Part shown: in pieces, positions 4,536-63,827 of the stretch | Layout of the letters: each line of letters starts with the position of its first letter | Position numbering within the stretch: position 1 is the stretch's first letter | DNA from: an uncultured Candidatus Saccharibacteria bacterium | Lineage (GTDB): Bacteria; Patescibacteriota; Doudnabacteria; UBA920 | Assembly: GCA_964524915.1 (NCBI GenBank) | Contig: CAZGEB010000002.1 | Location: 5,094-69,093 of the forward strand | Length of the DNA stretch: 64,000 nt | Direction of reading: 5' to 3' | Program-made: the position numbers and the translations under genes | Notes under the pieces: generated by a model | What the model saw: only the letters and a program-made list of their open reading frames with translations | Database searches by the model: none | What the model was told of the DNA's origin: nothing

Positions 4536-5645
4536 ATGCCTACCAATTTTGACCAAGAAAGTCTATACAGACACTGCTTTAATTTAGTCCCAAATATAGG
4601 GCAACGTAGGCTCTCCAAAATCCTACAGTATTTTGAGAGCGCAAGACAAGCTTGGATGGCAAAAAATTCTGAATGGGAAAATATTGACTTAGAAAAAACT
4701 ATCATAGAAAATATTTTTGCCTATAAAACAAAAATAAATCCCGCAGAGGAGCAAAATAAATTAAAGCAGCTGCAAATAAACCTTCTAATCCCAGAAGATC
4801 CGAGGTTTTTCACAGCACTTAAAGAAATACACGATCCTCCGCAACTCCTCTATTATAGAGGACACCTTCCAGAGCCAGACAGTCTTATGGTCGCGGTGGT
4901 TGGTACGAGAATGATTACTGGATATGGAAGAGTAACCACTCCGATCATCACAAAGTCTTTGGCTAGTGGCGGCGCGGTGATTGTCTCTGGACTGGCGTAT
5001 GGAGTAGACGCAGAAGCCCACAAAGCTGCCATAGAGGCCAAAGGAATCACACTGGCAGTGCTGGGGTGCGGCATAGACGACGCCACTATATATCCAAAAG
5101 ACCATCTACTTTTAGCCACTCAAATTTTAGAAAACCGAGGCTGCATAATTAGCGAACACCCACCCAAAACCCCAGGACTCAAACAAAACTTCATCATGAG
5201 GGACAGAATTATGTCTGGGCTATGCCAGGCCATCGTAGTGGTAGAGTGCGACCTAAAAAGTGGATCGCTAATCACCGCCAAATTCGCAGTTGAACAAAAC
5301 CGCCTCCTTTTTGCTGTACCGGGAAATATAACCTCTAAAATGTCAGAAGGTCCCAACAGACTCATTCAACAAGGAGCACGGCCCATCCTAGAAGGACGCG
5401 AGGTATTTAGTGAATTAAATATCACACCCACCGCCTCCAATTCTGCCGAAATTTTTCAAATACCAAAATTGAATACCCAAGAAACTATCATTTTTGGATT
5501 TTTATCCAATACTCCCAAATACCCAGACCAGCTAGTGGCTGAAAGTGGTTTGTCCGCAAGTCAAGTTACCGCCACACTTGGGATGCTAGAATTAAAAGGT
5601 GTCATCAAAAACTTGGGCGGTAATCAATACGTAAGAAATGTCTAA
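4536..5645 (+). CDS. dprA: DNA-processing protein DprA (Smf)
   Basis: VAVVGTRMITGYGRVTTPIITKSLASGGAVIVSGLAYGVDAEAHKAA is the Rossmann-like DprA core. Confidence 0.85.
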   Translation: MPTNFDQESLYRHCFNLVPNIGQRRLSKILQYFESARQAWMAKNSEWENIDLEKTIIENIFAYKTKINPAEEQNKLKQLQINLLIPEDPRFFTALKEIHDPPQLLYYRGHLPEPDSLMVAVVGTRMITGYGRVTTPIITKSLASGGAVIVSGLAYGVDAEAHKAAIEAKGITLAVLGCGIDDATIYPKDHLLLATQILENRGCIISEHPPKTPGLKQNFIMRDRIMSGLCQAIVVVECDLKSGSLITAKFAVEQNRLLFAVPGNITSKMSEGPNRLIQQGARPILEGREVFSELNITPTASNSAEIFQIPKLNTQETIIFGFLSNTPKYPDQLVAESGLSASQVTATLGMLELKGVIKNLGGNQYVRNV

Positions 5646-6903
5646 TATCAAATTTCTAATTTCTAAAAAACACGCAGCGCTGGCGATAATTATGGCCACT
5701 TGCATCATTATCACAATGGTCGGCTTTTATTTATTTCAAAATAATAAATCTCCTCTCCCCACCTCCAATGCCTCAATAGACACCCTTGAAGATGCGTGGG
5801 CCGTAGCCGCACAAAATATTAAAGATACAAACCAAACAACTGAAGTGACCTTCTTGGCAGTTGGAGATATTTCCCTTTCTCGTAATATCGCCTACACTAT
5901 CCAAAAAAATGGCAACGACCCAGACTACCCGTTTCGTAACATCTCTGCACTCCTCAAATCCACTGATTTTAATTTTGGTAATCTAGAAACTCCTTTTTCA
6001 TCTAGCGATAGGTTTACCCCAAGCAATACTCTAGTATTTAATGCGCCAAAGCTTAATGTCAAAGGCTTGGTAGATAACAATTTTAAAATTCTCAACCTAG
6101 CCAACAACCACTCTTTTGACCAAGGCATGGACGGCATCCGTACTACACAAAAAGTTCTCAAGGAAAACGACATTCAGTTTATGGGCACAGGAGAAAGCCT
6201 GGATGAATCATGGCAGCCTGCAATCATAGAAAAAAATGGAATCAAAATTGGCTTTATCGGCGCATCCTATGCTTCTATAAATGATGGCGGAAAATCTACA
6301 AACAACTTCGTCTCACGTATAGAAGACATTTCCCATCTTCAACTCGCAATTCGTAATACTAAACTCGTAGCAGATTTTCTAGTAGTTACCATGCACGCAG
6401 GCACAGAATACACCACCAAACCAAATCAATCTCAAATAGATTTTGCGCATGCAGCAATTGATGCTGGTGCAGACATGGTCATTGGCGCTCATCCCCACTG
6501 GGTACAAGAAAAAGAAATATATTGCCCGAAATCAGTTTCCTCCCCTGTCCAAGGGGAGGCTAGGTGGGGTGAAAATTCTGCGCAACTCGCAAATTCAAAT
6601 GAATTCACAGAACCTAAACAAACAAATTGTAAACCCATTTATTATTCTCTAGGTAATTTTATTTTTGATCAATCTTGGAGTAAGGAAACCACAGAGGGTT
6701 TGGCTTTAAAGATTACATTAAACAAAACTGTTTCTTCTCTATCCCCTAGTGAGGGGAAAGATGGCTTGCCCGCCAGTGAAAGGCTCTGGCAGGCAGGAGA
6801 TGGGTTGTATGAAAATAATTCACCCACCACTATAAAATCCTTAGAAGAAATTCCTATAAAAATAGAAAACAACTGCTGCGCAGTTGTCTCAAAAAAAGAA
6901 TAA
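5638..6903 (+). CDS. CapA/PgsA-family metallophosphatase (poly-gamma-glutamate capsule synthesis-like)
   Basis: LAVGDISLSR..NFGNLETP..VVTMHAGTEYT..GADMVIGAHPHWVQ. The C-terminal part carries two GC-rich palindromic in-frame insertions. Confidence 0.75.
   Translation: MSNIKFLISKKHAALAIIMATCIIITMVGFYLFQNNKSPLPTSNASIDTLEDAWAVAAQNIKDTNQTTEVTFLAVGDISLSRNIAYTIQKNGNDPDYPFRNISALLKSTDFNFGNLETPFSSSDRFTPSNTLVFNAPKLNVKGLVDNNFKILNLANNHSFDQGMDGIRTTQKVLKENDIQFMGTGESLDESWQPAIIEKNGIKIGFIGASYASINDGGKSTNNFVSRIEDISHLQLAIRNTKLVADFLVVTMHAGTEYTTKPNQSQIDFAHAAIDAGADMVIGAHPHWVQEKEIYCPKSVSSPVQGEARWGENSAQLANSNEFTEPKQTNCKPIYYSLGNFIFDQSWSKETTEGLALKITLNKTVSSLSPSEGKDGLPASERLWQAGDGLYENNSPTTIKSLEEIPIKIENNCCAVVSKKE
6529..6580. 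repeat. GC-rich palindromic element (cctcccc-tgtccaa-ggggagg) in frame inside capA-like CDS
   Basis: Inverted repeat CCTCCCC/GGGGAGG in a 38% GC gene; encodes SSPVQGEARWGE. Confidence 0.5.
6741..6765. repeat. GC-rich palindromic element (tcccct-agtg-agggga) in frame inside capA-like CDS
   Basis: Perfect 6-bp inverted repeat with a 4-nt loop; encodes LSPSEGK. Confidence 0.45.
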
Positions 6904-7300: not shown

Positions 7301-9685
7301 ATGTCAAAACCTTTAATAATAGTAGAGTCCCCCACCAAAGCCCGAACCATCACCAAGTTCCTCGGGAGTGAATATATAGTGGAGGCAAGTGTGGGCCATA
7401 TCAGGGACCTCCCTAAATCCAAGATTTCTATTGATGTTAAAAATGATTTTACCCCCACCTACGTCATTCCACCTGCCAAAGCAGAAATAGTAGAAAAACT
7501 GAAACACCTAGCAGCAAAAGCCTCAGAAATCATTCTAGCAACCGACGCCGACCGAGAAGGTGAGGCTATTTCTTGGCATCTGATCCAAGCCCTAGGCTTG
7601 GAAAATAAGAAAACAGAAAAAAGAAATCAGAAAAATCAATTGGAGGCTGCCTCTGCTTCCGAGCTCACGCCTCACGCCTCTCCGCCAGCCGGCGGACTCA
7701 CGCCTATCAAGAGAATTGTTTTTCACGAAATTACCAAATCAGCCATTGAAGAAGCCTTAAAACACCCAAGAGACTTAGATCAAAATCTGGTAGATGCCCA
7801 GCAAGCTCGCCGCGTACTAGATAGACTAGTAGGCTATGAGCTCTCACCTTTCCTCTGGAGAAAAGTACGCTACGGACTTTCTGCTGGCAGAGTCCAAAGT
7901 GTAGCTGTGAGGCTCGTCGTGGAAAGAGAAAGAGAAATTCAAAAATTTAAAACAGATGAATACTGGAGTATCAAAGCCCTAGCAGAAAACCAAGCAAAAT
8001 TCACTTTCGAAACCAGACTACACAAAGTAGCCGAAAAAAACCTGGGCAAATTAGATATTACAAATCAAGCTCAAGCAGAAAAGTATGTAGGAGAAATGCA
8101 AAAAGCTTCTTGGGTGGTTTCTAGCGTGCAGAAAAAAGAAGCCAAGCGCAACCCTTCAGCACCTTTTACCACCTCCACCCTCCAGCAAGAAGCAGCAAGA
8201 AAACTTGGATTTAGCGCCAAACAAACCATGGCAGTTGCCCAAGGTTTGTACGAGCAAGGTTTTATCACCTACATGCGTACCGATAGTTTGAACTTGTCAG
8301 ATTCAGCGATTAAACAAGCCAAAGAGATTATAACTGGACAATTTGGAAACCAGTATACACTAGAGACGCCAAGAATATTTACAAACAAATCCAAAGGCGC
8401 ACAAGAAGCTCACGAAGCCATTCGTCCCACAGACCTATCTAAACTTCCACAACATTTAAGTGGGGACCTGGACAGAAATCAATCCAGACTCTACGACCTT
8501 ATTTGGAAAAGAACCATCGCCTGTCAAATGCAACAAGCTTTGGTAGAACAAACTACAGTAGATATAGAAGGTAAATGTACCACAGAAAATAATCCTTACA
8601 CCTTGAGAGCCAACGGACAGATCATTAAATTTGATGGATTTATCAGAGTTTATACAGAAGGCAAAGACGCAGAAGATGACACAGAAGAAGACGGTGAAAA
8701 AACTTTGCCGGACTTAAAAGAAGGAGAGACTATCAGCGTCACCGACATTACTCCCGAGCAACACTTCACCGAACCACCTCCTAGATATACTGATGCCACA
8801 CTTATCAAAGCCCTAGAATCAGCTGGCATAGGCAGACCTTCTACCTACGCCCCCACCCTCACTACCATTCAAGAGAGAGAGTATGTAGACAAAGAAGACA
8901 AAAAATATAAACCAACTGAAGTTGGAATAATCGTTAATGATCTTTTGGTAGAACATTTTCCAGAAATTGTGGACATCAATTTCACCGCTAGGATAGAAGA
9001 AGAATTTGATGAAATCGCCGAAGGCAAAACTAAGTGGGTACCGGTAATTCGGGAATTTTACGAACCCTTTAAAAAACATTTGATAGAAAAAGAAGCTGCA
9101 GTAGAAAAGCAAGTAGAAGAATCAAATGTCCCCTGCAGCCACTGCGGCAAGATGATGATCATCAAATTTGGTAGAGCAGGCAGATTCCTCGCCTGCCCAG
9201 ATCCTGAAAGCAAAATTACTCAGCCACTACCAGAGGAAGCCGCCAAGATCAAAGAGCTAGAAGAAAAAACCAAAGACGAGAGATGCCCTATTTGCGACAA
9301 GCCTATGGAGGTCAAGCGTGGCAGGTTTGGATTTTTCCTTGGCTGCACTGACTACCCCAAGTGTAAAGGCATATCAAAAATTTGGAATAAGACTGGTTTC
9401 AAGTGTCCGAACTGTTTAGAAAATGCAGACAGAAAAAATAAACCGGGCGACATCGTAGAGAAAAAAGGGCGTGGTCGCGCCAAACCTTTTTGGGCATGCA
9501 CTAGGTGGCCTGATTGTGAATTTATTATAAACGTCCATCCAGAGTCAGAGACCCAGCTCAAAGAGCTGTTTGAAGCTTGGAAAAAAGCTCCCAAAAAAGA
9601 CAAGGATGAAAAGAAGTCTCGCTATACAAAAAAGCCTACCACCAAGAAAACTGCAGCCAAAACAAAAAAGGATTCGGGCAAGTAA
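7301..9685 (+). CDS. topA: DNA topoisomerase I with C-terminal Zn-ribbon repeats and a Lys-rich tail
   Basis: Toprim N-terminus LIIVESPTKARTI, active-site GFITYMRTDS, and three C4 zinc ribbons (CSHCGKMM..C, CPICDKPM..C, CPNC..C). Confidence 0.95.
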   Translation: MSKPLIIVESPTKARTITKFLGSEYIVEASVGHIRDLPKSKISIDVKNDFTPTYVIPPAKAEIVEKLKHLAAKASEIILATDADREGEAISWHLIQALGLENKKTEKRNQKNQLEAASASELTPHASPPAGGLTPIKRIVFHEITKSAIEEALKHPRDLDQNLVDAQQARRVLDRLVGYELSPFLWRKVRYGLSAGRVQSVAVRLVVEREREIQKFKTDEYWSIKALAENQAKFTFETRLHKVAEKNLGKLDITNQAQAEKYVGEMQKASWVVSSVQKKEAKRNPSAPFTTSTLQQEAARKLGFSAKQTMAVAQGLYEQGFITYMRTDSLNLSDSAIKQAKEIITGQFGNQYTLETPRIFTNKSKGAQEAHEAIRPTDLSKLPQHLSGDLDRNQSRLYDLIWKRTIACQMQQALVEQTTVDIEGKCTTENNPYTLRANGQIIKFDGFIRVYTEGKDAEDDTEEDGEKTLPDLKEGETISVTDITPEQHFTEPPPRYTDATLIKALESAGIGRPSTYAPTLTTIQEREYVDKEDKKYKPTEVGIIVNDLLVEHFPEIVDINFTARIEEEFDEIAEGKTKWVPVIREFYEPFKKHLIEKEAAVEKQVEESNVPCSHCGKMMIIKFGRAGRFLACPDPESKITQPLPEEAAKIKELEEKTKDERCPICDKPMEVKRGRFGFFLGCTDYPKCKGISKIWNKTGFKCPNCLENADRKNKPGDIVEKKGRGRAKPFWACTRWPDCEFIINVHPESETQLKELFEAWKKAPKKDKDEKKSRYTKKPTTKKTAAKTKKDSGK
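7661..7705. repeat. in-frame insertion: hairpin CTCCGCCAGCCGGCGGACTC flanked by TCACGCC direct repeats
   Basis: tcacgcc tcacgcc [tctccgccagccggcggac] tcacgcc. The 20-bp core is identical to 38424-38443 in the pnp leader. Encodes ELTPHASPPAGGLTPIK. Confidence 0.6.
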
Positions 9686-9925
9686 ATAAGGCGCTATTTT
9701 ATATGTCACTCATTCGAGACTTCCGGGAAGCCATGGTAAATGCGAGGAAGATTATAGAAACCAAAAAAGAAATTACAATTTTAAGAAGAGAAAATTAAAT
9801 ATTAAGCCAGAAGATAAAGGCGTTAGAGCCCATCGAATTAGAAAAAATAGACGGCGTCTGGACAAGCACAAGAGAAACATCACCAAGACCAACAAAATCA
9901 TAACTAACTAGTAGCACAAATAAAC

Positions 9926-11447: not shown

Positions 11448-12377
11448 ATGCAAAATTTCGTACCCCAATCCACCGGCGATTTCGAGCTTTTAGATTCAGG
11501 CATGTCCATGCGCCTAGAGAAATGGGGGCAGTATACTTTGTCACGCCCAGACCCACAAGCCATTTGGCAACCTTCTCTTCCCAAAGAAGAATGGGAAAAA
11601 GCTGATGCGGTTTTTGACGATGGCTGGAAAATAAAAAATAAAATCCAGCAACCTTGGGTGTATAAGTACAACCTCTCTGCCCCAATCAAAGCATCGGGGC
11701 ATCTCCCCTCACAAGGAGAGAGTATAAGGTTGTTCGCAAGGCTCACGGCTTTTAAACACACTGGTATTTTTCCAGAGCAAGCCTACAACTGGCAATGGCT
11801 TTCCCACAAGCTAAAAGCTATAAGCTATAAGCTAAAAATCCTCAACCTCTTCGCTTACACAGGTGCTACCACTTGTCTACTAGCTAGCCTTGGCTGCCAG
11901 GTAACTCATGTTGATGCATCAAAACCCTCTATTGAGTGGGCGAAAAATAATGCGAAGCTGAATAATCTCCCAGAAGATAGTATCCGCTGGATTTTAGATG
12001 ATGCGGCCAAGTTTGTAAAAAGAGAAATTAGGCGTGGGGCCGAGTACGACGGCATCATCATGGACCCGCCTGCTTTTGGGCACTCCCCTAGTGGTAAAAC
12101 TTGGAAATTTTCAGAAAATTTACCAGAACTGCTTTCCGATTGCATAAAGCTCTTGAGCCCACATGCACAATTTTTGATAATCAATGCCTACGCCACCAAC
12201 ACTTCTAGCATTGCGCTACAAAATTTATTAGAAGACAGCTTGCCCCCTCCCCTTCTGAGGGGAGGGTTGGGGAGGGGTGGTATTGAATCAGGCGAACTTT
12301 TACTTGAGCAAAAAAATAAACGCCTGCTATCCACAGGCATTCTCGCTAGATGGTCAAAACACACTAATCACAACTAA
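11448..12377 (+). CDS. class I SAM-dependent methyltransferase (RlmI/RlmK-like rRNA methyltransferase fold)
   Basis: FAYTGATTCLLASLGCQVTHVDASK...DGIIMDPPAFG. Carries an in-frame heptamer repeat (11806-11835) and a GC-rich palindromic insertion (12241-12290). Confidence 0.7.
   Translation: MQNFVPQSTGDFELLDSGMSMRLEKWGQYTLSRPDPQAIWQPSLPKEEWEKADAVFDDGWKIKNKIQQPWVYKYNLSAPIKASGHLPSQGESIRLFARLTAFKHTGIFPEQAYNWQWLSHKLKAISYKLKILNLFAYTGATTCLLASLGCQVTHVDASKPSIEWAKNNAKLNNLPEDSIRWILDDAAKFVKREIRRGAEYDGIIMDPPAFGHSPSGKTWKFSENLPELLSDCIKLLSPHAQFLIINAYATNTSSIALQNLLEDSLPPPLLRGGLGRGGIESGELLLEQKNKRLLSTGILARWSKHTNHN
12241..12290. repeat. GC-rich palindromic element (ccccctcccc-ttctg-aggggaggg-tt-ggggagggg) in frame in methyltransferase CDS
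   Basis: Reverse orientation of the CCCTCCCCTCAGAAGGGGAGGGG core. Encodes PPPLLRGGLGRGG. Confidence 0.6.
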
Positions 12378-23222: not shown

Positions 23223-23606
23223 TTAAGAATAAAAACTTTTTGACTTTTTAATTAAACCATTAATTATTTTATGTAACTCCACTAATGTACTGCTTATATA
23301 ATTGTAATCCGTTTTAGTAATAAATCCTAAATCCCTAGAAATCATAAATTGATTTTGGACTTCGGTAACAGACCCCAAGCTGATCGCATAGAATCTCGCC
23401 TTGTCTGCATAAGTACTCCTACTAAACCCCTCCGCAATATTGGATGTTATGGAAACCGATGCCCTGCGCAACTGATTGGTCAAACCAAACATTTCGGCTT
23501 TTGGAAAAGAATTAGTTAAACGATAAACCTCCAAGACTAACTCATGACCTTTTTTCCAAGCAAGTAAATCAGTAAAATTATGAATCTTGGCTTTTTCTTC
23601 ATTCAT
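23223..23606 (-). CDS. four-helix-bundle protein (TIGR02436 family), second copy
   Basis: LLAWKKGHELVLEVYRLTNSFPKAEMFGLTNQLRRASVSITSNIAEG. Confidence 0.8.
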   Translation of the reverse strand: MNEEKAKIHNFTDLLAWKKGHELVLEVYRLTNSFPKAEMFGLTNQLRRASVSITSNIAEGFSRSTYADKARFYAISLGSVTEVQNQFMISRDLGFITKTDYNYISSTLVELHKIINGLIKKSKSFYS

Positions 23607-27639: not shown

Positions 27640-28536
27640 TTATAACGAATCTCGAATTTTCTTTAAGATTTTTACATCCTCTTTCACTCTATCATGATCA
27701 GTTTCCAAAATCAATGGAAAAGTAATGTCATTCTTACTCTTTGAGAGAAGACTGTCAAGAGCTTTCAAAAAGGCCATTATTCCAGCCTTTCCAAGCTTCC
27801 CTTGCCCTATATGTTCATGCCTATCTTTGTGACTACCTAGCTCCACTTTACTGTCATTTACGTGCGACATGCGTAGAAACTTCAGTCCAATAATTTTATC
27901 AAACTGTTTCAAAACTTCGAGCGCTGATTTTTCTGTACGCAAATCATAACCGCTACCAAAAGCATGCTGAGTATCAAAACAAATTCCCCCAAAACCTTTT
28001 TTGCCAACTAGCGGCTTCATCAAATCTCTAACTTCTTCAAAAGTATCGCCCAAGACAGCTCCCGCACCTGCAGAAATTTCTATAAGCAACTCTGTAGTGC
28101 CTTTGTAATTTTTCAAAACTTCCACCAAACCTTTTTGTGCTTGCGCAAATCCTTTTTCTTCATTGTCTTTTAAACTTCCCGGATGGAACATGACAAACTT
28201 TGCACCCAGCAATGTGCCACGCTCCAATTCATCTCGCACTATAGCAATAGAAGATTTATAAGTAGCGGGCTTTGGTGAACCAAAGTTGATGTAATAAGGC
28301 GCATGAATAACAAAGCACGCCCCCTCTCCTTTTGAGGAGAGGGATGGGGAGAGGTTGTATTTCCCAGTCTCCCCTCTAAACTGTTCCAAAACTTCTTTGG
28401 TCAATTTCGGAGCTGGACCTCCCTGAGGTGAACGAGAAAATATTTGAAAAGTCTCGCAGCCCAAAGCCGCCGCCATTTTCGGCGCATTAAATACTCCTCC
28501 CGCAATACTCACATGACAACCTATTTGAAATTTCAT
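27640..28536 (-). CDS. nfo: endonuclease IV (AP endonuclease, Nfo)
   Basis: MKFQIGCHVSIAGG..HAPYYINFGSP..LIEISAGAG..FDTQHAFGSGYDL..HVNDSK. Carries an in-frame GC-rich palindromic insertion (28321-28385) encoding GETGKYNLSPSLSSKGEGA. Confidence 0.85.
   Translation of the reverse strand: MKFQIGCHVSIAGGVFNAPKMAAALGCETFQIFSRSPQGGPAPKLTKEVLEQFRGETGKYNLSPSLSSKGEGACFVIHAPYYINFGSPKPATYKSSIAIVRDELERGTLLGAKFVMFHPGSLKDNEEKGFAQAQKGLVEVLKNYKGTTELLIEISAGAGAVLGDTFEEVRDLMKPLVGKKGFGGICFDTQHAFGSGYDLRTEKSALEVLKQFDKIIGLKFLRMSHVNDSKVELGSHKDRHEHIGQGKLGKAGIMAFLKALDSLLSKSKNDITFPLILETDHDRVKEDVKILKKIRDSL
28321..28385. repeat. GC-rich palindromic element (CCCCTCTCC-TTTTG-AGGAGAGGG-AT-GGGGAGAGG...CTCCCCTCT) inside nfo
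   Basis: Inverted G/C arms in an AT-rich gene; the reading frame is maintained. Confidence 0.6.
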
Positions 28537-28988
28537 AATTTTTCCTTTACCCCCTCCCCTTTCTGCGAGTTCGCCGAAGCTTTAGCGTAGGAGAATGAGG
28601 GGAGGGTTGGGGAGGGGTTGGTTACTACTTGTTTAATAACCTCCAGCACTCCTTCTAAATTTTTATCAATCTCATTATTCCAAAAATGTAAAACAATGTA
28701 GCCTTGCGATTCCAAAAATTCTTGTTTCTGATTATCTGTAAATTTACCACTGGCCTCATTATGTTGACTACCATCCAACTCAATAGCCAACTTTTTGGCT
28801 CGACAAGAAAAATCAACAATCACAGCACCGATTTGTACTTGGCGCTTAAATTGTAAGCCTAAAAAACGATGGGCTCGCAGACGTGACCACAGCTTCGCCT
28901 CCCAAGGAGTTTGAGACTTACGAAGTTGTCGGGAATAAGACAAATAAGGCTCATGAACAAGTCGTTTTGGCATACTTTCATTATACAA
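28533..28988 (-). CDS. DUF559 endonuclease-domain protein (Vsr/restriction-endonuclease-like fold)
   Basis: LRK..T..E..LW..LR...GLQFKRQVQIGAVIVDFSC...LAIELDGSQH...VLHFWNNEI. Its C-terminal ~25 aa are encoded by the GC-rich element at 28549-28625. Confidence 0.6.
   Translation of the reverse strand: MYNESMPKRLVHEPYLSYSRQLRKSQTPWEAKLWSRLRAHRFLGLQFKRQVQIGAVIVDFSCRAKKLAIELDGSQHNEASGKFTDNQKQEFLESQGYIVLHFWNNEIDKNLEGVLEVIKQVVTNPSPTLPSFSYAKASANSQKGEGVKEKL
28549..28625. repeat. GC-rich palindromic element with long loop (CCCCTCCCC...GAGGGGAGGG-TT-GGGGAGGGG)
   Basis: The loop contains cgccgaagctttagcgtagg, which recurs between the two tRNA-Lys genes (10770-10790). Confidence 0.6.
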
Positions 28989-29040
28989 CCCCTCCCTTGA
29001 TCCCTCCCCTCAGAAGGGGAGGGGTTTAAGACACAAACTG
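28981..29040. repeat. GC-rich palindromic element (CCCCTCCC-TTGAT-CCCTCCCC-TCAGAA-GGGGAGGGG) between the DUF559 and M16 peptidase genes
   Basis: Canonical copy of the family, at the 5' end of the DUF559 gene and over the C-terminal codons and stop of the M16 peptidase gene (29026). Confidence 0.6.
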
Positions 29041-30291
29041 TTTAAACTTCTTCTCGTCCTTAAAAGGACCTAAAACCACCATGGACATTTTGTTTTTTTG
29101 GAAAAGTTCTTTGGCAACATCTTTTACTTGCTTTGCGGTTACCGCGTCCACGCGAGCAAAGGCTTCTTCTGGAGTGCGAATTTGTTTTTTAAAAGCCGCT
29201 TGTTCCAGCACCCAGTCTAGTCTAGTTTGATTATCTTCCAAGGCCAAAGCAGTTTTTCCTTTCAAATACTCTTTGGCTTTTTTCATTTCCTCCTCACCAA
29301 CTATTTCTTCCGAAATACGCTTGAGTTCTGCCAAAATTACAGAGATAGCCTCATCGCATTTCTCCACGCGCACTCCCGACATTACTCCAAATTCCCCCAC
29401 ATCTTGATATGAATTAGGTGATGCCACCACATAATATGCCAAGCCTCTTTTTTGTCTGACCTCTTCCCAAAGCCTAGAGGACATACCGCCACTCAAGATA
29501 GCAGACAAAACTGCCGTAGCAGGCCCTCGCTTGTCGTCATTTGGAAAACCTTTAAAACCAATACAAACAACTGCTTGCTCATTTTCTTTGTAAATGACTT
29601 TGAGACGTGGCTTTGTTTGTTTGTCTTTGGCTTTTTCCCAGCCACCGCCTTTTTTCTTTTTGACACTTCCCCAATATTTTTTAATCAAAGAATCCAATTC
29701 TCTTTCGTCAAAATTTCCAGACACCCCAATCAACATATTGGTAGTCTGGTAATGCCTTTGCATGTACTCTCTAAAATCTTTTGCGGTAAATTTTTGAATG
29801 GTTTTTTTGTAACCAATAATCTCTCTTCCTAAATGATCTTTTTGCCACATGAGTTTATCCAGGGCTTCTGCTGCGACATTTGTCGGCTGATCCTTGCCCA
29901 TATTCAACTCTTCTATGATCACACCTTTTTCTTTTTCCATCTCCACCTCGTCCAAAAGTGGATTTTGCACCATATCTGTCAAAATATCAAAGATCAAAGC
30001 CAAATGCTTGCCGCGAGTTTTTATAAAAAACTGTGTGTGCTCTTTTCCAGTATTGGCATTGAAGTCGCCACCCAAGCCATCTACTACAGCATTAATAGCC
30101 AAAGGGCTTGGATATTTTTTTGTACCTTTAAATAAAAAGTGCTCTAAAAAATGAGAAATCCCAGCTTCTTTTTCAGACTCACTCCTTGAGCCAGTTTTCA
30201 CAAAAATATCCACGACCACGCTTTCAGTGTCCCTACTTGGAACCTTGATAATTGTCAGTCCATTTGCCAAAACTTGTTTTGTGTAATGCAT
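29026..30291 (-). CDS. M16-family zinc peptidase (insulinase/pitrilysin-like)
   Basis: Inverted zinc motif HFLEHFLFKGT (HxxEH). Confidence 0.85.
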   Translation of the reverse strand: MHYTKQVLANGLTIIKVPSRDTESVVVDIFVKTGSRSESEKEAGISHFLEHFLFKGTKKYPSPLAINAVVDGLGGDFNANTGKEHTQFFIKTRGKHLALIFDILTDMVQNPLLDEVEMEKEKGVIIEELNMGKDQPTNVAAEALDKLMWQKDHLGREIIGYKKTIQKFTAKDFREYMQRHYQTTNMLIGVSGNFDERELDSLIKKYWGSVKKKKGGGWEKAKDKQTKPRLKVIYKENEQAVVCIGFKGFPNDDKRGPATAVLSAILSGGMSSRLWEEVRQKRGLAYYVVASPNSYQDVGEFGVMSGVRVEKCDEAISVILAELKRISEEIVGEEEMKKAKEYLKGKTALALEDNQTRLDWVLEQAAFKKQIRTPEEAFARVDAVTAKQVKDVAKELFQKNKMSMVVLGPFKDEKKFKQFVS

Positions 30292-31212: not shown

Positions 31213-31286
31213 TTGTCATCCCGAGCGAGGTTTTACGAGCCGAGGGATCCCTCCATTCCGCAAAGCCTCCAGTCGGGATGACACAA
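31213..31286. mobile_element. MITE-like element with TTGTCATCCCGAG / TCGGGATGACACAA terminal inverted repeats
   Basis: 11-12-bp terminal inverted repeats about 48 bp apart, immediately 3' of the GIY-YIG nuclease gene. Same terminal inverted-repeat family as 38361-38462 and 40540-40644. Confidence 0.5.
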
Positions 31287-31295
31287 GAGGAATAG

Positions 31296-31595
31296 TTACC
31301 ACTCTAGACTTAAATCTTTCCAACTAGGATTCATTTGTTTTATTAAAAATTCTTTTTTCTCCCTACGCCAACCCTTCAGTTGTTTTTCTCTGATAATGGC
31401 TGATTCAATATTTTCAGTCTCTTCAAAGAAAATCAATTTATGACAATTGTATCTTTTAGTAAATCCTTCTAGTAAATTATTTTTATGCTCGTACACTCTT
31501 CTGACTAAATCATTTGTCACACCAACATACAAAGTCCCGCTCGTACTTGCCATAATATAAACATAATAAAATCTATTTTGCATAATGCAAACCAT
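31296..31595 (-). CDS. GIY-YIG nuclease-domain protein (UPF0213-like)
   Basis: FYYVYIMASTSGTLYVGVTNDLVRRVYEHK...EKQLKGWRREKK. Confidence 0.75.
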   Translation of the reverse strand: MVCIMQNRFYYVYIMASTSGTLYVGVTNDLVRRVYEHKNNLLEGFTKRYNCHKLIFFEETENIESAIIREKQLKGWRREKKEFLIKQMNPSWKDLSLEW

Positions 31596-59278: not shown

Positions 59279-60604
59279 ATGACCAAACTTAAACCCTCCA
59301 AAAAAACCATTTATTTAGACCACGCGGCTACTACCCCAATCCGCGAAGAAGTCTTGCGCGTGATGAAGCCATATTTTGCAGAAAAATTTGGTAACCCTTC
59401 TAGTCTTTACAAGCTGGGAGTAGAAGCAAAGAATGCAATAGAGGATGCTAGAAAATCTATTGCGGAGAATCTAAACGCCAGAGCAGAAGAAATCATTTTT
59501 ACCGCTGGAGGTAGTGAGAGTGTAAATTTGGGAATACTTGGAGTTGCCAAGAATCACAAAGCAAAACAACCTCTCTCTATCTCTCCCCTCACAAGGCGAG
59601 AAAACCGGAAAAGAACGCACGGACACATCATCACTTCCAAAATAGAGCATCATGCTGTATTAAATACATTAGAACAACTGGAAAAAGAGGGCTTTGCCGT
59701 GACACAAATCAGTGTGGACAATGAAGGTTTTTTTGATATTGAAGAATTTAAAAAAGCTATCCGCCCAGATACTTTTCTGGTAAGTCTCATGTACGCCAAT
59801 AATGAAATAGGCACCATAGAGCCTATCCGTGAAATTTCAAAAATAATCAAACAGGAAAATCTACACCGCTTCCAACTAAAAACTAAAAACTCTCAACTAA
59901 AAACCCCCATCCTCCTCCACACCGACGCCTGCCAAGCAGCTGGCTTTTTGGATCTAAATGTGCAAAGACTTGGCGTGGACCTAATGAGCATCAATGCCAG
60001 TAAAATCTACGGCCCCAAACAAATTGGTTGCTTGTATGCAAAAAAAGGGATCGCCCTCTCCCCTATTATTTTTGGGGGCGGGCAAGAAAGAAATCTCAGG
60101 AGCGGTACAGAGAATGTTGCAGGCATAGTTGGTTTTGCTAAAGCTTTGGAATTGGCGGCTTTGGAAAGAGATAAAGAGGTACAGAGACTAGAGAAATTAA
60201 GGGATTATTTATTTAAAGAAATAATTAAAATAAATAAAAACTCTGTTTTAAATGGTCCGAGTATCGCAAATACAACCTCTCCCCTAACCCCTCTCCTCAG
60301 AAGGCGAGGGGAAACAGGTCGCCGCCTACCAAATAATTTAAATATTACATTTCCAAATGCTGAAGGTGAAGCGCTCATGCTTTACTTGGATGCTTACAAT
60401 ATCGCAGTTTCCACAGGGAGCGCCTGCACGGCCTACGAAACTGACCCTTCTCATGTACTGAAAGCTGTTGGGTTAAGCGATGAGGATGCCAAATCTAGCC
60501 TGCGCATCACATTGGGAAAATCTACCAACAAAAAAGATTTAGAGTACTTTATAAAAGCCCTCAAAGAAACTCTCGAAATAGTTTCAAAAAATACAGTTGC
60601 GTAA
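59279..60604 (+). CDS. iscS: cysteine desulfurase (IscS/NifS family) carrying two in-frame repeat insertions
   Basis: LDHAATTP, PLP-Lys SINASKIYGPKQIG, active Cys STGSACTA. Insertions at 59571-59610 (SISPLTRRENRKRT) and 60271-60320 (TSPLTPLLRRRGETGRRL). Confidence 0.9.
   Translation: MTKLKPSKKTIYLDHAATTPIREEVLRVMKPYFAEKFGNPSSLYKLGVEAKNAIEDARKSIAENLNARAEEIIFTAGGSESVNLGILGVAKNHKAKQPLSISPLTRRENRKRTHGHIITSKIEHHAVLNTLEQLEKEGFAVTQISVDNEGFFDIEEFKKAIRPDTFLVSLMYANNEIGTIEPIREISKIIKQENLHRFQLKTKNSQLKTPILLHTDACQAAGFLDLNVQRLGVDLMSINASKIYGPKQIGCLYAKKGIALSPIIFGGGQERNLRSGTENVAGIVGFAKALELAALERDKEVQRLEKLRDYLFKEIIKINKNSVLNGPSIANTTSPLTPLLRRRGETGRRLPNNLNITFPNAEGEALMLYLDAYNIAVSTGSACTAYETDPSHVLKAVGLSDEDAKSSLRITLGKSTNKKDLEYFIKALKETLEIVSKNTVA
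59571..59610. repeat. degenerate GC-rich palindromic element (CTCTCCCC-TCACAA-GGCGAG) in frame in iscS
   Basis: Related to CCCTCCCCTCAGAAGGGGAGGG. Confidence 0.5.
60271..60320. repeat. GC-rich palindromic element (CTCTCCCCT-AA-CCCCTCTCC-TCAGAA-GGCGAGGGG) in frame in iscS
   Basis: Same TCAGAAGG loop as the 28981 copy. Confidence 0.6.
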
Positions 60605-60843: not shown

Positions 60844-60930
60844 GGGTCGGTGGCGGAGCGGTCAATCGCAGCTGACTGTAAATCAGCCGTCCTCGTGGCT
60901 ACGCAGGTTCGAATCCTGCCCGGCCCACCA
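60844..60930 (+). tRNA. tRNA-Tyr (anticodon GTA), class II with long variable arm, CCA encoded
   Basis: GGGTCGGTGGCGGAGCGGTCAATCGCAGCTGA-CTGTAAA-TCAGCCGTCCTCGTGGCTACGCAGGTTCGAATCCTGCCCGGCCCACCA. Confidence 0.85.
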
Positions 60931-61108
60931 CGAATCAAGCAAAAATTCTGGTTCATAGCATAGCTATTAAACCGAAACAAAGATCGAGGCGTGTCCTGCA
61001 CTGGAGGCTTTGCGACTAGCGCAGGACTATACAGATAGCGCTCAATGCTTACAAAACCTCATTAAATATTACGCGACTTCCTCAGCTAATATACAAAACC
61101 TCAATATT

Positions 61109-63070: not shown

Positions 63071-63280
63071 TTCTTTTTCTTAATTATCTATCCTAAAGGC
63101 GAAAACAAACACGCGAAATTACTGTGAATAAAAAAGTAATTATGCGAAGACAAAATTAATCGCAAGCAAAATGCTTTTCAAATTTTTATGTCTTGAAATA
63201 AAGTCTGAAAAAATCAGAGCCTATTCGCCAATATACCCAAGTGTACTTAAAATAAATACACTTGAAATACTCACGAAAAA

Positions 63281-63561
63281 TTATTTTTCTTTTTCAATAT
63301 CTATGACTGGACCATCGATTTGTTTCGGTTCTTGGACTTTTGAAATCCTTGCAAAAGTCTCTTTAAAAAGGGCTCCTTCTCCATCCAATACTGGACCCAC
63401 AACAACAGCGTCACCATGAACCAATACCACCCCCCATCAGGAGATAATATTCTGCCAGATTTTATAACCACAATCTCAGAATTAGTACCGCCTGGGGAAA
63501 TTATTCCTGGTTCACTTGTTAATTTTTTAAGCATAAAACTATTTTTTAAACTCAGCAACAC
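63281..63561 (-). pseudogene. beta-helix (bactofilin-like) small gene split by a frameshift at a C6/G6 tract
   Basis: Frame A MLKKLTSEPGIISPGGTNSEIVVIKSGRILSPDGG and frame B VLVHGDAVVVGPVLDGEGALFKETFARISKVQEPKQIDGPVIDIEKEK* join at 63430-63435. Either a true frameshift, phase variation or a homopolymer sequencing error. Confidence 0.3.
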
Positions 63562-63666
63562 TGGCGAAAATAAACCGCCCTAGATTCCCAAAACAACACC
63601 GCCCCTCCCCCACAACCTTGCGACTATATGTACCTTCGCCCAGCACTTTCCACAGCTTTAAGCTCT

Positions 63667-63740
63667 TGGTGCTCACGGGGAGAGTCGAACTCCCACGACC
63701 TTGCGGTCACCCAGACTCAGAGTCGGGGCGTATCTGCCAA
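63667..63740 (-). other. tRNA-like 3' fragment (T-arm + acceptor 3' strand + CCA) with non-canonical 5' half
   Basis: Reverse complement ends ...GGGAGTTCGACTCTCCC-CGTGAGC-A-CCA. The 5' region (TTGGCAGATACGCCCCGAC...) cannot pair with the acceptor 3' strand and lacks a D-arm. Contains a GACC-GCAA-GGTC hairpin. Confidence 0.3.
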
Positions 63741-63827
63741 TGGTGGGCGTGGAGAGACTCGAACTCTCACGAGATTGCTCCCATACGCACCTGAAGCGTA
63801 CGTGTATACCAATTTCACCACACGCCC
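63741..63827 (-). tRNA. tRNA-Leu (anticodon CAG), class II, CCA encoded
   Basis: Reverse complement GGGCGTGTGGTGAAATTGGTATACACGTACGC-TTCAGGT-GCGTATGGGAGCAATCTCGTGAGAGTTCGAGTCTCTCCACGCCCACCA. Confidence 0.85.

What the first reader, a model, noticed from the sequence alone, without database searches (positions are those of the whole stretch)
28321..29040. GC-rich palindromic element family inserted in frame inside essential genes; hotspot around nfo/DUF559
A ~25-45-bp element with G/C-only inverted arms recurs at least eight times in this 38% GC window. The consensus is CCCTCCCC-TCAGAA-GGGGAGGG, with variants CCCCTCTCC...GGAGAGGG and CTCTCCCC-TCACAA-GGCGAG. Four copies lie within 720 bp (28321, 28549, 28981 and the nfo-internal copy). 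The others sit inside open reading frames without breaking them: nfo (encodes GETGKYNLSPSLSSKGEGA), iscS twice, the RlmI-like methyltransferase (PPPLLRGGLGRGG) and capA twice. In-frame palindromic insertions into coding sequence are known from Rickettsia RPEs and Neisseria Correia elements. I am not aware of this G4AG4-type family being described. It looks like a selfish, hairpin-forming element tolerated in surface loops of host proteins.
Basis: seen in the sequence. Interest (0 to 1): 0.85.

Follow-up and report, generated by a model that had tools for sequence, protein, structure and literature searches.

The report
Triplex-motif repeats bracketing a DUF559 nuclease
The 40-bp GC-rich repeat that sits in frame inside essential genes of this small-genome (Patescibacteria) bacterium belongs to the long-known but unexplained BoxC / "intrastrand triplex motif" family. 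Here and across many bacterial phyla it also forms the inverted ends of a small DUF559 nuclease gene, which may be what spreads it.

Summary
Nine copies of a ~35-45-bp element lie in the 64-kb window, with none expected by chance. Seven are read through in frame in four genes (CapA x2, RlmI-like methyltransferase x2, Nfo, IscS x2). Orthologue alignments show lineage-specific insertions at recurrent hotspots, and AlphaFold models put the Nfo and IscS inserts in flexible loops.

The family is not new. The unit is a C-rich arm, a loop, a G-rich arm, a short spacer, and a second G block that mirrors the first. That is the architecture of BoxC/PIT/"TMECO" intrastrand triplex motifs (Holder et al. 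2015). The same core occurs in many phyla.

Two things appear to be new. First, in Patescibacteria the copies do not avoid genes, whereas in E. coli they are always intergenic. Second, the nfo "hotspot" is a DUF559 (YcjD-like, Vsr-fold) nuclease gene bracketed by two inverted copies. This bracket is general: 55 of 65 independently sampled DUF559 genes have a flanking motif, against 3 of 62 control genes. E. coli ycjD is one of them, and "empty" gene-less versions with the same termini exist.

Best reading: a REP/RAYT-like or MITE-like selfish system with DUF559 as the candidate mobilising nuclease. The physical association is shown. The enzymology is inferred.

The parts
6539..6571 (+). E8: divergent copy (CCTCCCCT-GTCCA-AGGGGAGG-CTA-GGTGGGGTG), in frame in CapA (peptide ...SSPVQGEARWGEN...)
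   Evidence: Detector hit; sequence; translation. Lies within ~33 residues absent from solved CapA 8gqb. Hairpin is the minimum-free-energy fold.
6737..6810 (+). E9: copy with a ~34-nt extra hairpin nested between the G arm and the second G block; ends GGGTTGTA. In frame in CapA (SSLSPSEGKDGLPASERLWQAGDGLYEN).
   Evidence: double-hairpin fold.
5638..6903 (+). Host gene: CapA / PGA_cap family protein, carrying E8 and E9
   Evidence: Pfam PF09587, E 6e-67
11667..11722 (-). E1: copy with a 24-nt mini-hairpin nested between the G arm and the second G block. In frame (antisense) in the methyltransferase (YNLSAPIKASGHLPSQGES).
   Evidence: nhmmer E 1.3e-3; sequence; fold. Insertion hotspot in orthologues, and P0262 has no insert there.
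12243..12282 (+). E2: canonical copy CCCCCTCCCC-TTCTGA-GGGGAGGG-TT-GGGGAGGGG-TGGTA. In frame (sense) in the methyltransferase (LPPPLLRGGLGRGG).
   Evidence: The window has 14 residues where close orthologues have 4-5.
11448..12377 (+). Host gene: RlmI-like SAM-dependent methyltransferase, carrying E1 and E2
   Evidence: Pfam PF10672; PDB 2igt, E 3e-66
28320..28359 (+). E3: copy CCCCCTCTCC-TTTTGA-GGAGAGGG-AT-GGGGAGAGG-TTGTA. In frame (antisense) in nfo (NLSPSLSSKGEGAC). The arm changes are compensatory and the third block is an exact mirror of the G arm.
   Evidence: 14 codons where empty orthologues have 4. The only pLDDT<50 segment of the Nfo model.
27640..28536 (-). Host gene: nfo (endonuclease IV), carrying E3. 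Its start overlaps the DUF559 stop by 4 nt.
   Evidence: Pfam PF01261; ORF list
28550..28620 (+). E4: downstream (3') terminus of the DUF559 cassette, inverted relative to E5. Its loop is expanded by ~30 nt. It encodes the C-terminal tail of the DUF559 ORF (NPSPTLPS...KGEGVKEKL).
   Evidence: fold. Shared with the 96%-identical relative L005.
28533..28988 (-). DUF559 (YcjD-like, Vsr-fold PD-(D/E)XK) nuclease gene. The Pfam domain covers residues 17-122. The likely start is the in-frame ATG at codon 6.
   Evidence: Pfam PF04480, E 9.5e-36. NCBIfam PRK09767, 98.7 bits. PDB 3hrl, E 1e-18. Invariant D/E-L-D-G-x-Q-H residues across four phyla-spanning homologues.
28984..29024 (-). E5: upstream (5') terminus of the DUF559 cassette (CCCCTCCCC-TTCTGA-GGGGAGGG-ATCAA-GGGAGGGG-TTGTA). 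Lies between the M16 peptidase stop and the DUF559 start, with its second G block facing the gene.
   Evidence: shared with L005
59566..59602 (-). E6: degenerate copy (TTCTCGCC-TTGTGA-GGGGAGAG-ATA-GAGAGAGG-TTGT). In frame (antisense) in IscS (KQPLSISPLTRRENRKR).
   Evidence: nhmmer E 4e-6; sequence. 17-residue gap in PDB 9wep. Private to the window and the 95% relative. Low-pLDDT loop.
60271..60311 (-). E7: copy CCCCTCGCC-TTCTGA-GGAGAGGGG-TTA-GGGGAGAGG-TTGTA. In frame (antisense) in IscS (TTSPLTPLLRRRGETG). The third block is an exact 9/9 mirror of the G arm.
   Evidence: ~18-residue gap in 9wep. pLDDT<50 at residues 332-346.
59279..60604 (+). Host gene: IscS/NifS-like cysteine desulfurase, carrying E6 and E7
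   Evidence: Pfam PF00266, E 1e-65; PDB 9wep, E 2e-93

Best explanation
The repeats are the Patescibacterial variant of the BoxC / PIT / 'TM' intrastrand triplex motif. The unit has a pyrimidine (C-rich) arm, a ~6-nt loop, the complementary purine arm, a 2-5-nt spacer, and a second purine block that mirrors the first, here followed by TTG(TA).

Two inverted copies, with their second G blocks facing inward, form the termini of a small selfish cassette that encodes a YcjD-type DUF559 (Vsr-fold PD-(D/E)XK) nuclease (window 28533-29024). The other seven copies are orphan, non-autonomous units of the same family. They were dispersed in trans and are now old and fixed.

The genome is ~87% coding, the G/C-only arms leave most reading frames free of stop codons, and copies do not avoid genes. 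Only insertions that preserve the frame and land in permissive surface loops survive. That gives the 10-18-residue P/S/L/G/E/R-rich inserts in Nfo, IscS, the methyltransferase and CapA, and explains why the same loops are colonised again and again in related lineages.

Shown: the architecture, the family relationship, the insertion status and loop location, the cross-phylum DUF559 bracket, and the existence of empty gene-less units with the same termini.

Inferred: that DUF559 recognises and nicks or cuts the folded motif and that host repair or recombination then copies the motif. This would work like RAYT with REP/REPIN sequences, or like an autonomous element with its MITEs.
For: Family:
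- The three-block layout is seen in all nine copies.
- The third block mirrors the G arm rather than repeating it: 24 against 4 among informative copies, and 8/8, 8/8 and 9/9 in the three informative window copies. This is what Holder et al.'s class II purine motif requires.
- The arms show compensatory changes (E3 against E2), and the hairpin is the minimum-free-energy fold in every copy.
- The same 23-nt core occurs in 52 loci of Saccharibacteria, Doudnabacteria, Peribacteria, Chloroflexota, Armatimonadota, Bacteroidota, cyanobacteria and Proteobacteria.

Insertions:
- Nfo, IscS, methyltransferase and CapA inserts are absent from close orthologues and solved homologues.
- In other Patescibacteria loci, 11 of 21 copies lie at least 50 codons deep in long open frames.
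- The same Nfo loop carries unrelated motif pairs in L143 and L144.
- The inserts coincide with the low-pLDDT loops.
- The window is ~87% coding and 7 of 9 copies are intragenic. Plain copies leave 3-5 of 6 frames open.

Cassette:
- The window's DUF559 gene is bracketed by E5 and E4.
- The geometry is the same in L052 and L008; at E. coli ycjD a degenerate inverted copy at the gene's 3' end is followed by TMECO no. 9 in forward orientation, and no upstream copy was found.
- In 80 metagenomic DUF559 loci chosen by protein similarity only, 55 of 65 evaluable genes have a motif within 150 bp, 34 of 65 on both sides, and 31 of 65 in the canonical (+ upstream, - downstream) orientation. For other ORFs in the same loci the figures are 3 of 62 and 0 of 62 (Fisher 1e-21 and 4e-13). 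The loci span 30-70% GC.
- 12 of 19 DUF559 genes in viral-labelled contigs also have an adjacent motif.
- The two flanking motifs of one gene resemble each other more than motifs of other loci (0.60 against 0.39, p 7e-7). Their second G block ends a median of 27 nt upstream and 19 nt downstream of the protein match.
- Empty units GCGGAGC-motif(+)-15-20 nt-motif(-)-GCTCCGC occur in L059, L023 and L031. L052 has the same termini with DUF559 inside.
- E. coli K-12 has five inverted motif pairs; by coordinates and strand four of them (+ then -, 16-28 bp apart) match the bracket geometry and one is (- then +) (Table 1 of PMC4666352).

Protein:
- DUF559 is grouped with Vsr and with a bona fide homing endonuclease (3r3p).
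- Its catalytic-type residues are conserved.

E. coli copy number:
- Motif counts track ycjD presence: 18-30 copies in ycjD-positive phylogroups A/B1/C against 1-2 in B2. In a sample of 59 chromosomes the median is 16 places per record against ~3.
Against: - No biochemical activity is known for any DUF559 protein. The closest structure, 3hrl, is uncharacterised.
- A ~110-residue nuclease cannot carry out strand transfer on its own.
- No recent mobility was seen. All five comparable copies are shared between the window and ~95%-identical relatives over ~20 kb.
- No target-site duplication or clean empty site could be defined, because the orthologues are too diverged.
- The E. coli copy-number correlation is mostly phylogenetic. 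ycjD-positive strain 042 (~10 places) is no richer than ycjD-negative O157 (~12).
- Motifs persist in lineages without ycjD.
- The 80 loci are the best relatives of an alignment built from four bracketed genes, so the result holds for the YcjD-like subfamily and not necessarily for all DUF559.
- Holder et al. saw no in vivo triplex signal.
Confidence: 0.55

Rival explanations
1. DUF559 is a free-standing homing endonuclease gene that parasitises pre-existing inverted motif pairs. It cuts the short spacer of an empty pair and is copied in by repair, using the two motifs as homology arms. The motifs themselves would spread by some other route, such as another enzyme or replication slippage / template switching at hairpins. 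DUF559 would then be a passenger and not the mobiliser.
For: Empty pairs and DUF559-occupied pairs share the same termini. DUF559 is grouped with a group I intron homing endonuclease, and there is a weak PADLOC 'HEase' match. The gene is single-copy and present in only 62% of E. coli genomes, while motifs persist without it. Strain 042 against O157 shows no copy-number effect.
Against: It does not explain how solo motifs and (-)(+) pairs reach coding loops. DUF559 sits at one site and not many, even in genomes with many potential landing pads. The motif types flanking the gene match the dispersed copies of the same genome, which both models predict.
Confidence: 0.25
2. The motifs are host-level structural DNA elements (non-B DNA that modulates replication, recombination or supercoiling and so generates variability, as Holder et al. 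proposed). They have no dedicated enzyme, and DUF559 genes are simply found in the unstable regions the motifs create.
For: Holder et al. found elevated rearrangement around TMECO sites and stable triplex formation by the single strand in vitro. The ycjD site in E. coli is a variable locus that alternates with the eef operon.
Against: The bracket is gene-specific, oriented and tight: 31 of 65 canonical on both sides against 0 of 62 control genes, with median distances of 19-27 nt. The two ends co-vary within loci. Identical cores are shared across phyla. Insertions into essential proteins are hard to see as a benefit to the host.
Confidence: 0.1
3. The copies act at the RNA level, as terminators, processing sites or mRNA stabilisers, or as elements that are removed or bypassed so they never reach the protein.
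For: They form stable hairpins. One copy follows the M16 peptidase stop codon.
Against: There is no Rfam family. The terminator scan gives no signal above chance, and E4 and E5 lack a T-tail. PIT elements showed no promoter or terminator activity, and purine-motif triplexes cannot form in RNA. Copies occur in both orientations relative to host genes (3 sense, 4 antisense) and always keep the frame open, which would be unnecessary if they were removed or bypassed.
Confidence: 0.05
4. The similarity is protein-level convergence: selection for flexible P/G/S/E-rich linkers in surface loops, and not a DNA element.
For: The inserts are low-complexity loop peptides at recurrent positions.
Against: The shared entity is the DNA. 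Different frames and strands give different peptides (PPPLLRGGLGRGG, NLSPSLSSKGEGA, TSPLTPLLRRRGETG) from the same nucleotide unit. Identical units lie outside host proteins, flanking DUF559. Arm complementarity and mirror symmetry are nucleotide-level constraints.
Confidence: 0.02

Closest known systems
BoxC / PIT elements / TMECO 'intrastrand triplex motifs' (Bachellier 1990s; Hoyne & Maher 2000; Holder et al. 2015, PMC4666352)
   Same: [quoted passage not shown] Both are G/C-rich islands, occur as multiple dispersed copies, and frequently form inverted pairs. Near-identical cores are found in many phyla.
   Different: The stem sequence is CCCCTC(C/T)CC with a third block GGGGAG(A/G)GG-TTG, instead of CCCTCNCCC ... 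GGGTGAGGG. In the window 7 of 9 copies are intragenic and translated, whereas E. coli copies are 'always' intergenic. Nested mini-hairpins are common. Holder et al. reported no linked mobility function; here a DUF559 nuclease gene is bracketed by the motif.
REP / REPIN sequences and their RAYT transposases
   Same: In both, short GC-rich palindromes are dispersed in many copies, and a single-copy nuclease-type gene is flanked by two copies in inverted orientation. Doublets (REPIN-like inverted pairs) exist alongside singlets. The copies are vertically stable and occur at low to moderate copy number.
   Different: The protein is a PD-(D/E)XK Vsr-fold DUF559, not an HUH/Y1 IS200-like transposase. 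There is no GTAG/CGTC head tetranucleotide; the conserved end is GG-TTG(TA). The motif has a third, mirror block. REPs are extragenic.
Rickettsia palindromic elements (RPEs)
   Same: Both are palindromic selfish repeats inserted in frame into conserved protein-coding genes. They are translated as extra surface peptides and tolerated in a reduced genome (own knowledge: Ogata et al. 2000).
   Different: RPEs are ~100-150 bp, AT-richer, restricted to Rickettsia, unrelated in sequence, and have no known associated nuclease gene. The present units are 33-45 bp (up to 74 bp with nested hairpins) and belong to a cross-phylum family.
Bacterial MITEs such as Neisseria Correia elements
   Same: The empty units (termini plus a short spacer) relate to the DUF559-containing unit as a MITE relates to its autonomous parent. 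Some MITEs also insert into coding sequence.
   Different: No DDE-type transposase, no demonstrable target-site duplication, and much shorter termini. The candidate enzyme is a small nuclease with no integrase domain.
Mobile GC clusters of yeast and fungal mitochondrial DNA
   Same: Both are short G/C-rich hairpin elements scattered in an AT-richer genome, sometimes in frame in protein genes (own knowledge).
   Different: They occur in organellar genomes, are unrelated in sequence, and have no triplex-type third block or DUF559 association.

Membership tests
BoxC / PIT / TM intrastrand triplex motif (Holder 2015 definition) | 5' pyrimidine (C-rich) stem of ~8-9 nt, followed after a 3-6-nt loop by the complementary purine stem (at most 1 mismatch) | tested here: met
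   All nine copies have 8-10-nt C/T arms and 5-6-nt loops (E4's loop is expanded by an insertion). The hairpin is the minimum-free-energy fold.
BoxC / PIT / TM intrastrand triplex motif (Holder 2015 definition) | A second G-rich stem after a short (~3-nt) loop, oriented as a mirror of the purine stem (reverse-Hoogsteen strand, class II) | tested here: met
   The spacer is 2-5 nt. The mirror match beats the direct match 24 to 4, with 18 ties. Window copies E3, E5 and E7 are perfect mirrors.
BoxC / PIT / TM intrastrand triplex motif (Holder 2015 definition) | Match to the TMECO consensus CCCTCNCCC-N3-6-GGGNGAGGG-N3-GGGNGAGGG | tested here: not met
   The window stems are CCCCTCCCC / CCCCTCTCC and the third block is GGGGAGGGG / GGGGAGAGG. 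This is the same architecture with a different sequence variant, so it belongs to the general G/C-rich TM class and not to the E. coli subtype.
BoxC / PIT / TM intrastrand triplex motif (Holder 2015 definition) | Over-represented, dispersed multi-copy occurrence | tested here: met
   Nine copies in 64 kb against 0 in shuffles. 52 loci in the species-representative genomes.
BoxC / PIT / TM intrastrand triplex motif (Holder 2015 definition) | The single strand actually folds into a triplex (CD/NMR) | not testable with these tools
   ViennaRNA models only the hairpin. Holder et al. showed a triplex in vitro for TMECO only, with no in vivo signal.
REP / RAYT system | The associated gene encodes an HUH/Y1 (IS200/IS605-like) RAYT transposase | tested here: not met
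   The bracketed gene is PF04480 DUF559 (plus a sub-threshold REase_MTES_1575 match), with no Y1_Tnp hit. Closest structure is 3hrl.
REP / RAYT system | The nuclease gene is flanked by two repeats in inverted orientation, and the same repeats are dispersed genome-wide | tested here: met
   Window copies E5 and E4, plus seven dispersed copies. 31 of 65 DUF559 genes are canonically bracketed against 0 of 62 controls.
REP / RAYT system | Conserved GTAG or CGTC tetranucleotide at one end of the palindrome (Di Nocera 2013) | tested here: not met
   The 5' flanks are variable. The conserved end is GG-TTG(TA) in Patescibacteria and GGTGAGG(T) elsewhere.
Rickettsia palindromic elements | ~100-150-bp palindromic element inserted in frame in protein genes of Rickettsia | tested here: not met
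   The in-frame behaviour is met. Unit length is 33-74 bp and the host is Patescibacteria. Sequence relatedness to RPEs was not tested.
MITE (e.g. Correia) | Terminal inverted repeats with a target-site duplication, derived from an autonomous transposase-encoding element | tested here: inconclusive
   Empty and DUF559-filled units share the same termini. No target duplication could be read, because the empty orthologous sites are too diverged and no polymorphic site was found.
Vsr very-short-patch repair endonuclease | Reaches the TIGR00632 / Vsr family threshold | tested here: not met
   17.2 bits against a cutoff of 97.85. The best NCBIfam match is PRK09767 (YcjD DUF559), 98.7 bits against an equivalog cutoff of 218. 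It shares the fold family with Vsr but is not a Vsr orthologue.

The most novel reading that the evidence does not exclude
YcjD-type DUF559 proteins are the missing enzymes of the BoxC / PIT / triplex-motif repeats. This would be a new, PD-(D/E)XK-based counterpart of the RAYT/REP system, present from E. coli to Patescibacteria. Its structured ~40-bp termini are mobilised in trans. In gene-dense CPR genomes they remodel essential proteins by repeatedly inserting short translated segments into the same surface loops.
Probability: 0.4. Interest if true: 0.85.

Novelty: new variant of a known kind. Interest (0 to 1): 0.7.

Why it matters
BoxC/PIT/TM repeats have been catalogued since the 1990s, with thousands of copies in hundreds of genomes. 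Their origin is unknown, no function has been demonstrated, and no enzyme has been linked to them. Holder et al. state explicitly that they never found a linked mobility function.

A strong, oriented, cross-phylum physical link to one small nuclease family gives a concrete hypothesis. Because E. coli K-12 ycjD is part of the pattern, the hypothesis can be tested in the most tractable organism. It would also assign a role to DUF559, a very widespread domain of unknown function.

For Patescibacteria, the result identifies a systematic source of lineage-specific insertions in conserved proteins (Nfo, IscS, rRNA methyltransferase, CapA). This matters for alignment, phylogeny, structure prediction and gene calling in these genomes. 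It also shows that the same repeat family can be strictly extragenic in one host and freely intragenic in another.

Tried and rejected
- Rfam gathering scan of the window: tRNAs only.
- Intrinsic-terminator reading: no signal above shuffles, and no T-tails at E4 or E5.
- G-quadruplex reading: canonical copies have four G tracts, but variants such as GGAGAGGG-AT-GGGGAGAGG break the tracts while keeping arm complementarity and mirror symmetry. A hairpin/triplex-type constraint fits better.
- Exact insertion boundaries and target duplication at nfo: the empty orthologues are only ~70% identical. 14 codons replace 4 and no duplication is readable.
- Presence/absence polymorphism against near-strain contigs L001-L005 and L142 (~95-100% identity, ~20 kb): all five comparable copies are shared. 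The only large differences are unrelated cargo next to two tRNA genes.
- A clean empty site for E. coli ycjD: in ycjD-less strains the eef efflux operon occupies the locus, so it is uninformative.
- Systematic left/right (type A / type B) differentiation of the two DUF559 termini: seen in some loci (L102, L139) and in E. coli pairs, but not generally.
- Phage vector for the cross-phylum spread: the motif is absent from 2.9 million viral contigs and DUF559 is rare there.
- Flanking by the same element of the other small selfish-looking genes in the window: the four-helix-bundle gene has none, and GIY-YIG has a different palindrome.
- Defence-system membership of DUF559: only weak PADLOC hits.
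- Literature: seven searches found no description of these elements in CPR, nor of a DUF559/YcjD-repeat link. The library is open-access only, and Hoyne 2000 and Bachellier were read only through Holder et al.
Full report
OBSERVATION

None is expected in 100 dinucleotide-preserving shuffles. Laying the copies side by side shows a longer unit: (G)CCCCTCCCC-TTCTGA-GGGGAGGG-TT-GGGGAGGGG-TTGTA.

A profile built from four copies finds two more: 59566-59602, and 11667-11722, the latter with a 24-nt mini-hairpin nested inside. A generic detector adds two in the CapA gene: 6539-6571, and 6737-6810, again with a nested hairpin. The detector finds nothing in 20 shuffles of the window. With the loop-expanded copy at 28550-28620, that makes nine copies.

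Pfam confirms the host genes: Nfo, a class-V aminotransferase (IscS/NifS-like), an RlmI-like SAM methyltransferase, CapA (PGA_cap), DUF559 and an M16 peptidase. There are three copies, not four, in 28320-29024. The '28321' copy is the nfo-internal one.

ARE THE INTRAGENIC COPIES REAL INSERTIONS IN LOOPS?

Yes.

- Nfo. The window and a 97%-identical protein have NLSPSLSSKGEGAC where 60-71%-identical Patescibacteria orthologues have four residues such as GLED, GFTD, GFED or KLSE. At codon level, 14 codons stand where the empty genes have 4.
- IscS. Both motif-encoded peptides are private to the window and a 95% relative. They fall in 17- and ~18-residue gaps of the solved cysteine desulfurase 9wep.
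- Methyltransferase. Site 2 has 14 residues against 4-5 in close orthologues. Site 1 is an insertion hotspot that one orthologue lacks entirely.
- CapA. It has ~33 extra residues relative to 8gqb at the first copy.

AlphaFold models support loop locations. In Nfo (mean pLDDT 90.3) the only segment below 50 is residues 65-72, inside the insert, between helix 47-59 and strand 75-78. In IscS (mean pLDDT 84.2) the low segments are 101-104 and 332-346, which are the two inserts, plus 382-388.

Other lineages carry different inserts at the same positions. In two Nfo orthologues (L143, L144) the DNA shows these are also motif copies, as (-)(+) pairs of different sequence. The loop was therefore colonised independently at least three times. 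In other Patescibacteria contigs, 11 of 21 copies of the core lie at least 50 codons deep in long open frames, up to 1,055 codons in 40-46% GC DNA.

The window is ~87% coding and 7 of 9 copies are intragenic, so genes are not avoided. Plain copies leave 3-5 of the six frames open. Copies occur in both orientations relative to their hosts (3 sense, 4 antisense).

WHAT IS THE ELEMENT?

A scan of one genome per species with the degenerate core CCCCTCNCCTTNTGAGGNGAGGG found 52 loci. They come from Saccharibacteria, Doudnabacteria, Peribacteria and other Patescibacteria, and also from Chloroflexota, Armatimonadota, Bacteroidota, Fibrobacterota, a cyanobacterium, Alphaproteobacteria, a Serratia and an Oscillospiraceae. 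Beyond the searched core, the second G block recurs. It is GGGGAGAGG-TTG in Patescibacteria and GGGGTGAGG(T) or GGGGGAGGGGTG elsewhere.

A literature search on those strings led to Holder et al. 2015 (PMC4666352). They describe exactly this architecture as a class II purine-motif intrastrand triplex motif: the E. coli 'TMECO', earlier called BoxC and PIT elements. Its pattern is CCCTCNCCC-N3-6-GGGNGAGGG-N3-GGGNGAGGG. They report 3,610 copies in 262 proteobacterial genomes and many G/C-rich relatives in cyanobacteria and other groups.

A triplex third strand must mirror the purine arm rather than repeat it. Among informative copies the mirror match wins 24 to 4. The three informative window copies are perfect mirrors, for example GGAGAGGGG then GGGGAGAGG. 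The arms show compensatory changes, and the hairpin is the minimum-free-energy fold of every copy.

The family is therefore known in kind. The window carries a sequence variant that does not fit the TMECO consensus itself.

Holder et al. report several properties. E. coli copies are always intergenic. Five sites are inverted pairs. The single strand forms a triplex in vitro, but no in vivo signal was seen. PIT elements have no promoter or terminator activity. No mobility function was ever found nearby. The window adds no Rfam family and no terminator signal.

THE HOTSPOT IS A DUF559 CASSETTE

The DUF559 ORF (28533-28988, minus strand) is preceded by E5 and followed by E4 in inverted orientation. 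In both, the second G block faces the gene. E4 supplies the last ~29 residues of the ORF, whose stop overlaps the nfo start.

Among the 52 motif loci, the only two tblastn hits to DUF559 lie within ~35 bp of the motif and show the same two-sided bracket (L052, L008). In E. coli K-12, TMECO no. 9 of Holder's Table 1 lies ~170 bp downstream of ycjD, which is annotated as DUF559. A degenerate copy sits at the gene's 3' end, with a duplicated gene remnant in between.

For an independent test I collected 80 metagenomic loci by DUF559 protein similarity alone and scanned them with the generic detector.

- 65 of 80 loci have a motif within 150 bp of the gene, and 38 have one on both sides.
- Orientation is biased as in the window: upstream + 51 to 18, downstream - 50 to 18.
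- Density is 6.0 per kb next to the gene against 0.31 per kb elsewhere.
- Against other ORFs of the same loci: 55 of 65 against 3 of 62 with any flanking motif, 34 of 65 against 0 of 62 with both, and 31 of 65 in the canonical orientation. Fisher p is 1e-21 and 4e-13. The loci span 30-70% GC.
- The second G block ends a median of 27 nt upstream and 19 nt downstream of the protein match.
- The two termini of one gene resemble each other more than termini of other loci (0.60 against 0.39, p 7e-7), often sharing the same nested GCGAAGC-type mini-hairpins.
- Even in viral-labelled contigs, 12 of 19 DUF559 genes have an adjacent motif.

In Patescibacteria there are also gene-less units: GCGGAGC-motif(+)-15-20 nt-motif(-)-GCTCCGC (L059, L023, L031). 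L052 has these same outer termini with DUF559 in place of the short spacer. By their coordinates, four of the five E. coli inverted pairs have this geometry, (+) then (-), 16-28 bp apart.

This is the relationship of a full-length element to its miniature derivative, or of an occupied homing site to an empty one.

THE PROTEIN

It matches PF04480 (E 1e-35) and the YcjD model PRK09767, below the equivalog cutoff. It matches Vsr only weakly. Its closest structure, 3hrl, is an uncharacterised 'endonuclease-like protein'. Surveys place DUF559 in the PD-(D/E)XK superfamily together with Vsr and the group I intron homing endonuclease 3r3p. D59, E70-L-D72-G and Q75-H76 are invariant in four homologues from very different bacteria. 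It is not a recognised defence component.

MECHANISM

The best-supported reading is a selfish nuclease/repeat system that works like RAYT with REP/REPINs, or like an autonomous element with its MITEs. DUF559 would recognise the folded motif and nick or cut it. Host repair or recombination would then copy motifs, singly or as pairs, to new sites. In a gene-dense genome, only frame-preserving insertions in permissive loops are retained.

The association, geometry, co-variation of ends, empty units and insertion biology are shown. The enzymatic steps are inferred.

The main rival is that DUF559 is a homing endonuclease gene that invades pre-existing motif pairs and has nothing to do with motif spread.

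Evidence on dependence is suggestive only. ycjD is single-copy and present in 3,378 of 5,426 complete E. coli genomes. It is confined to phylogroups A, B1 and C plus ST69 and ST182, with the eef operon in its place elsewhere. TMECO counts are 18-30 in A/B1/C strains, 1-2 in B2 and 6-15 in D/E/F. In a spread sample of 59 chromosomes, ycjD-positive genomes show 10-25 places per record (median 16) against 1-13 (median ~3) in ycjD-negative genomes. This is largely one phylogenetic contrast. The ycjD-positive D strain 042 (~10) is no richer than ycjD-negative O157 (~12).

No recent movement was seen in the window lineage. All five comparable copies are shared with ~95%-identical relatives, and they differ only by point changes and a 2-bp deletion.

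The motif is absent from viral contigs, so the route of cross-phylum sharing is open.

VERDICT

- The selfish-element / surface-loop interpretation is supported.
- The claim of an undescribed family is not supported: it is a BoxC/PIT/TM-type triplex motif.
- The intragenic, translated lifestyle in Patescibacteria and the cross-phylum DUF559 bracket appear to be undescribed in the literature I could search. They make an old question, what generates these repeats, directly testable.

Noticed in passing
window 31213-31292, next to the GIY-YIG gene at 31296-31595 (-); also L142 ~9640-9790: A different GC-rich palindrome (TGTCATCCCGAGCGAGG...CCAGTCGGGATGACA) lies immediately downstream of a small GIY-YIG nuclease gene. 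A similar GTCATTGCGATGAG...CTCGCGATGACA palindrome occurs in a strain-specific segment of the near relative. This may be a second nuclease-plus-palindrome pairing of the same general kind.
   Followed up: partly
window 23223-23606 (-): A 127-aa four-helix-bundle gene sits between grpE and dnaK in the hrcA-grpE-dnaK cluster. Its counterpart in the near relative L005 carries 23S_rRNA_IVP and weak bAvd Pfam hits on record (not scanned directly here). It has no flanking triplex motif.
   Followed up: partly
window E1 11667-11722, E9 6737-6810, E4 28550-28620; L022, L038, L052; many DUF559 termini in L086, L096, L113, L121, L125: Small extra GC-rich hairpins are nested inside the motif. They usually lie between the G arm and the second G block, are often built on GCGAAGC / GAAG-type stem-loops, and are often present in both termini of a cassette with different sequence. 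Their origin is unexplained.
   Followed up: partly
window 60931-61087 and 63073-63710, against L142 7247-7618 and 9604-10589: The only large differences between the window and a ~95%-identical relative are two replaced segments directly beside tRNA-Tyr (60844-60930) and tRNA-Leu (63741-63827). These look like tRNA-adjacent integration or replacement hotspots unrelated to the triplex motif.
   Followed up: partly
L060 (E. coli K-12 NC_000913.3 1351200-1351800): Downstream of ycjD there is a degenerate motif at the gene's 3' end. It is followed by a ~45-nt imperfect duplicate of the ycjD 3' coding end, then by the intact TMECO no. 9. Upstream of the gene is a separate 17-bp-arm hairpin (CACCTCATTCTGACAAAAG...CTTGTCAGAATGAGGTG). 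This suggests a past rearrangement at the cassette end.
   Followed up: no
A1 alignment (Nfo orthologues P0025, P0030, P0053) and the methyltransferase alignment: Motif-like peptides (e.g. NNLSAPIKQSGRLSKLGEN, MREGLGEG...) also appear as N-terminal extensions of called genes. This suggests that gene callers often extend ORFs into upstream motifs in Patescibacteria. The peptide LPLKPGETKTG at methyltransferase site 1 is shared by dozens of orthologues and may be an ancient, vertically inherited insertion.
   Followed up: partly
window 27640-30291 against L006, L007, L143, L144: The interval between the M16 peptidase gene and nfo is a variable slot. It holds the DUF559 cassette here, YafQ-type or HicA/UPF0150 toxin-antitoxin genes in relatives, and a methyltransferase in another.
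   Followed up: no
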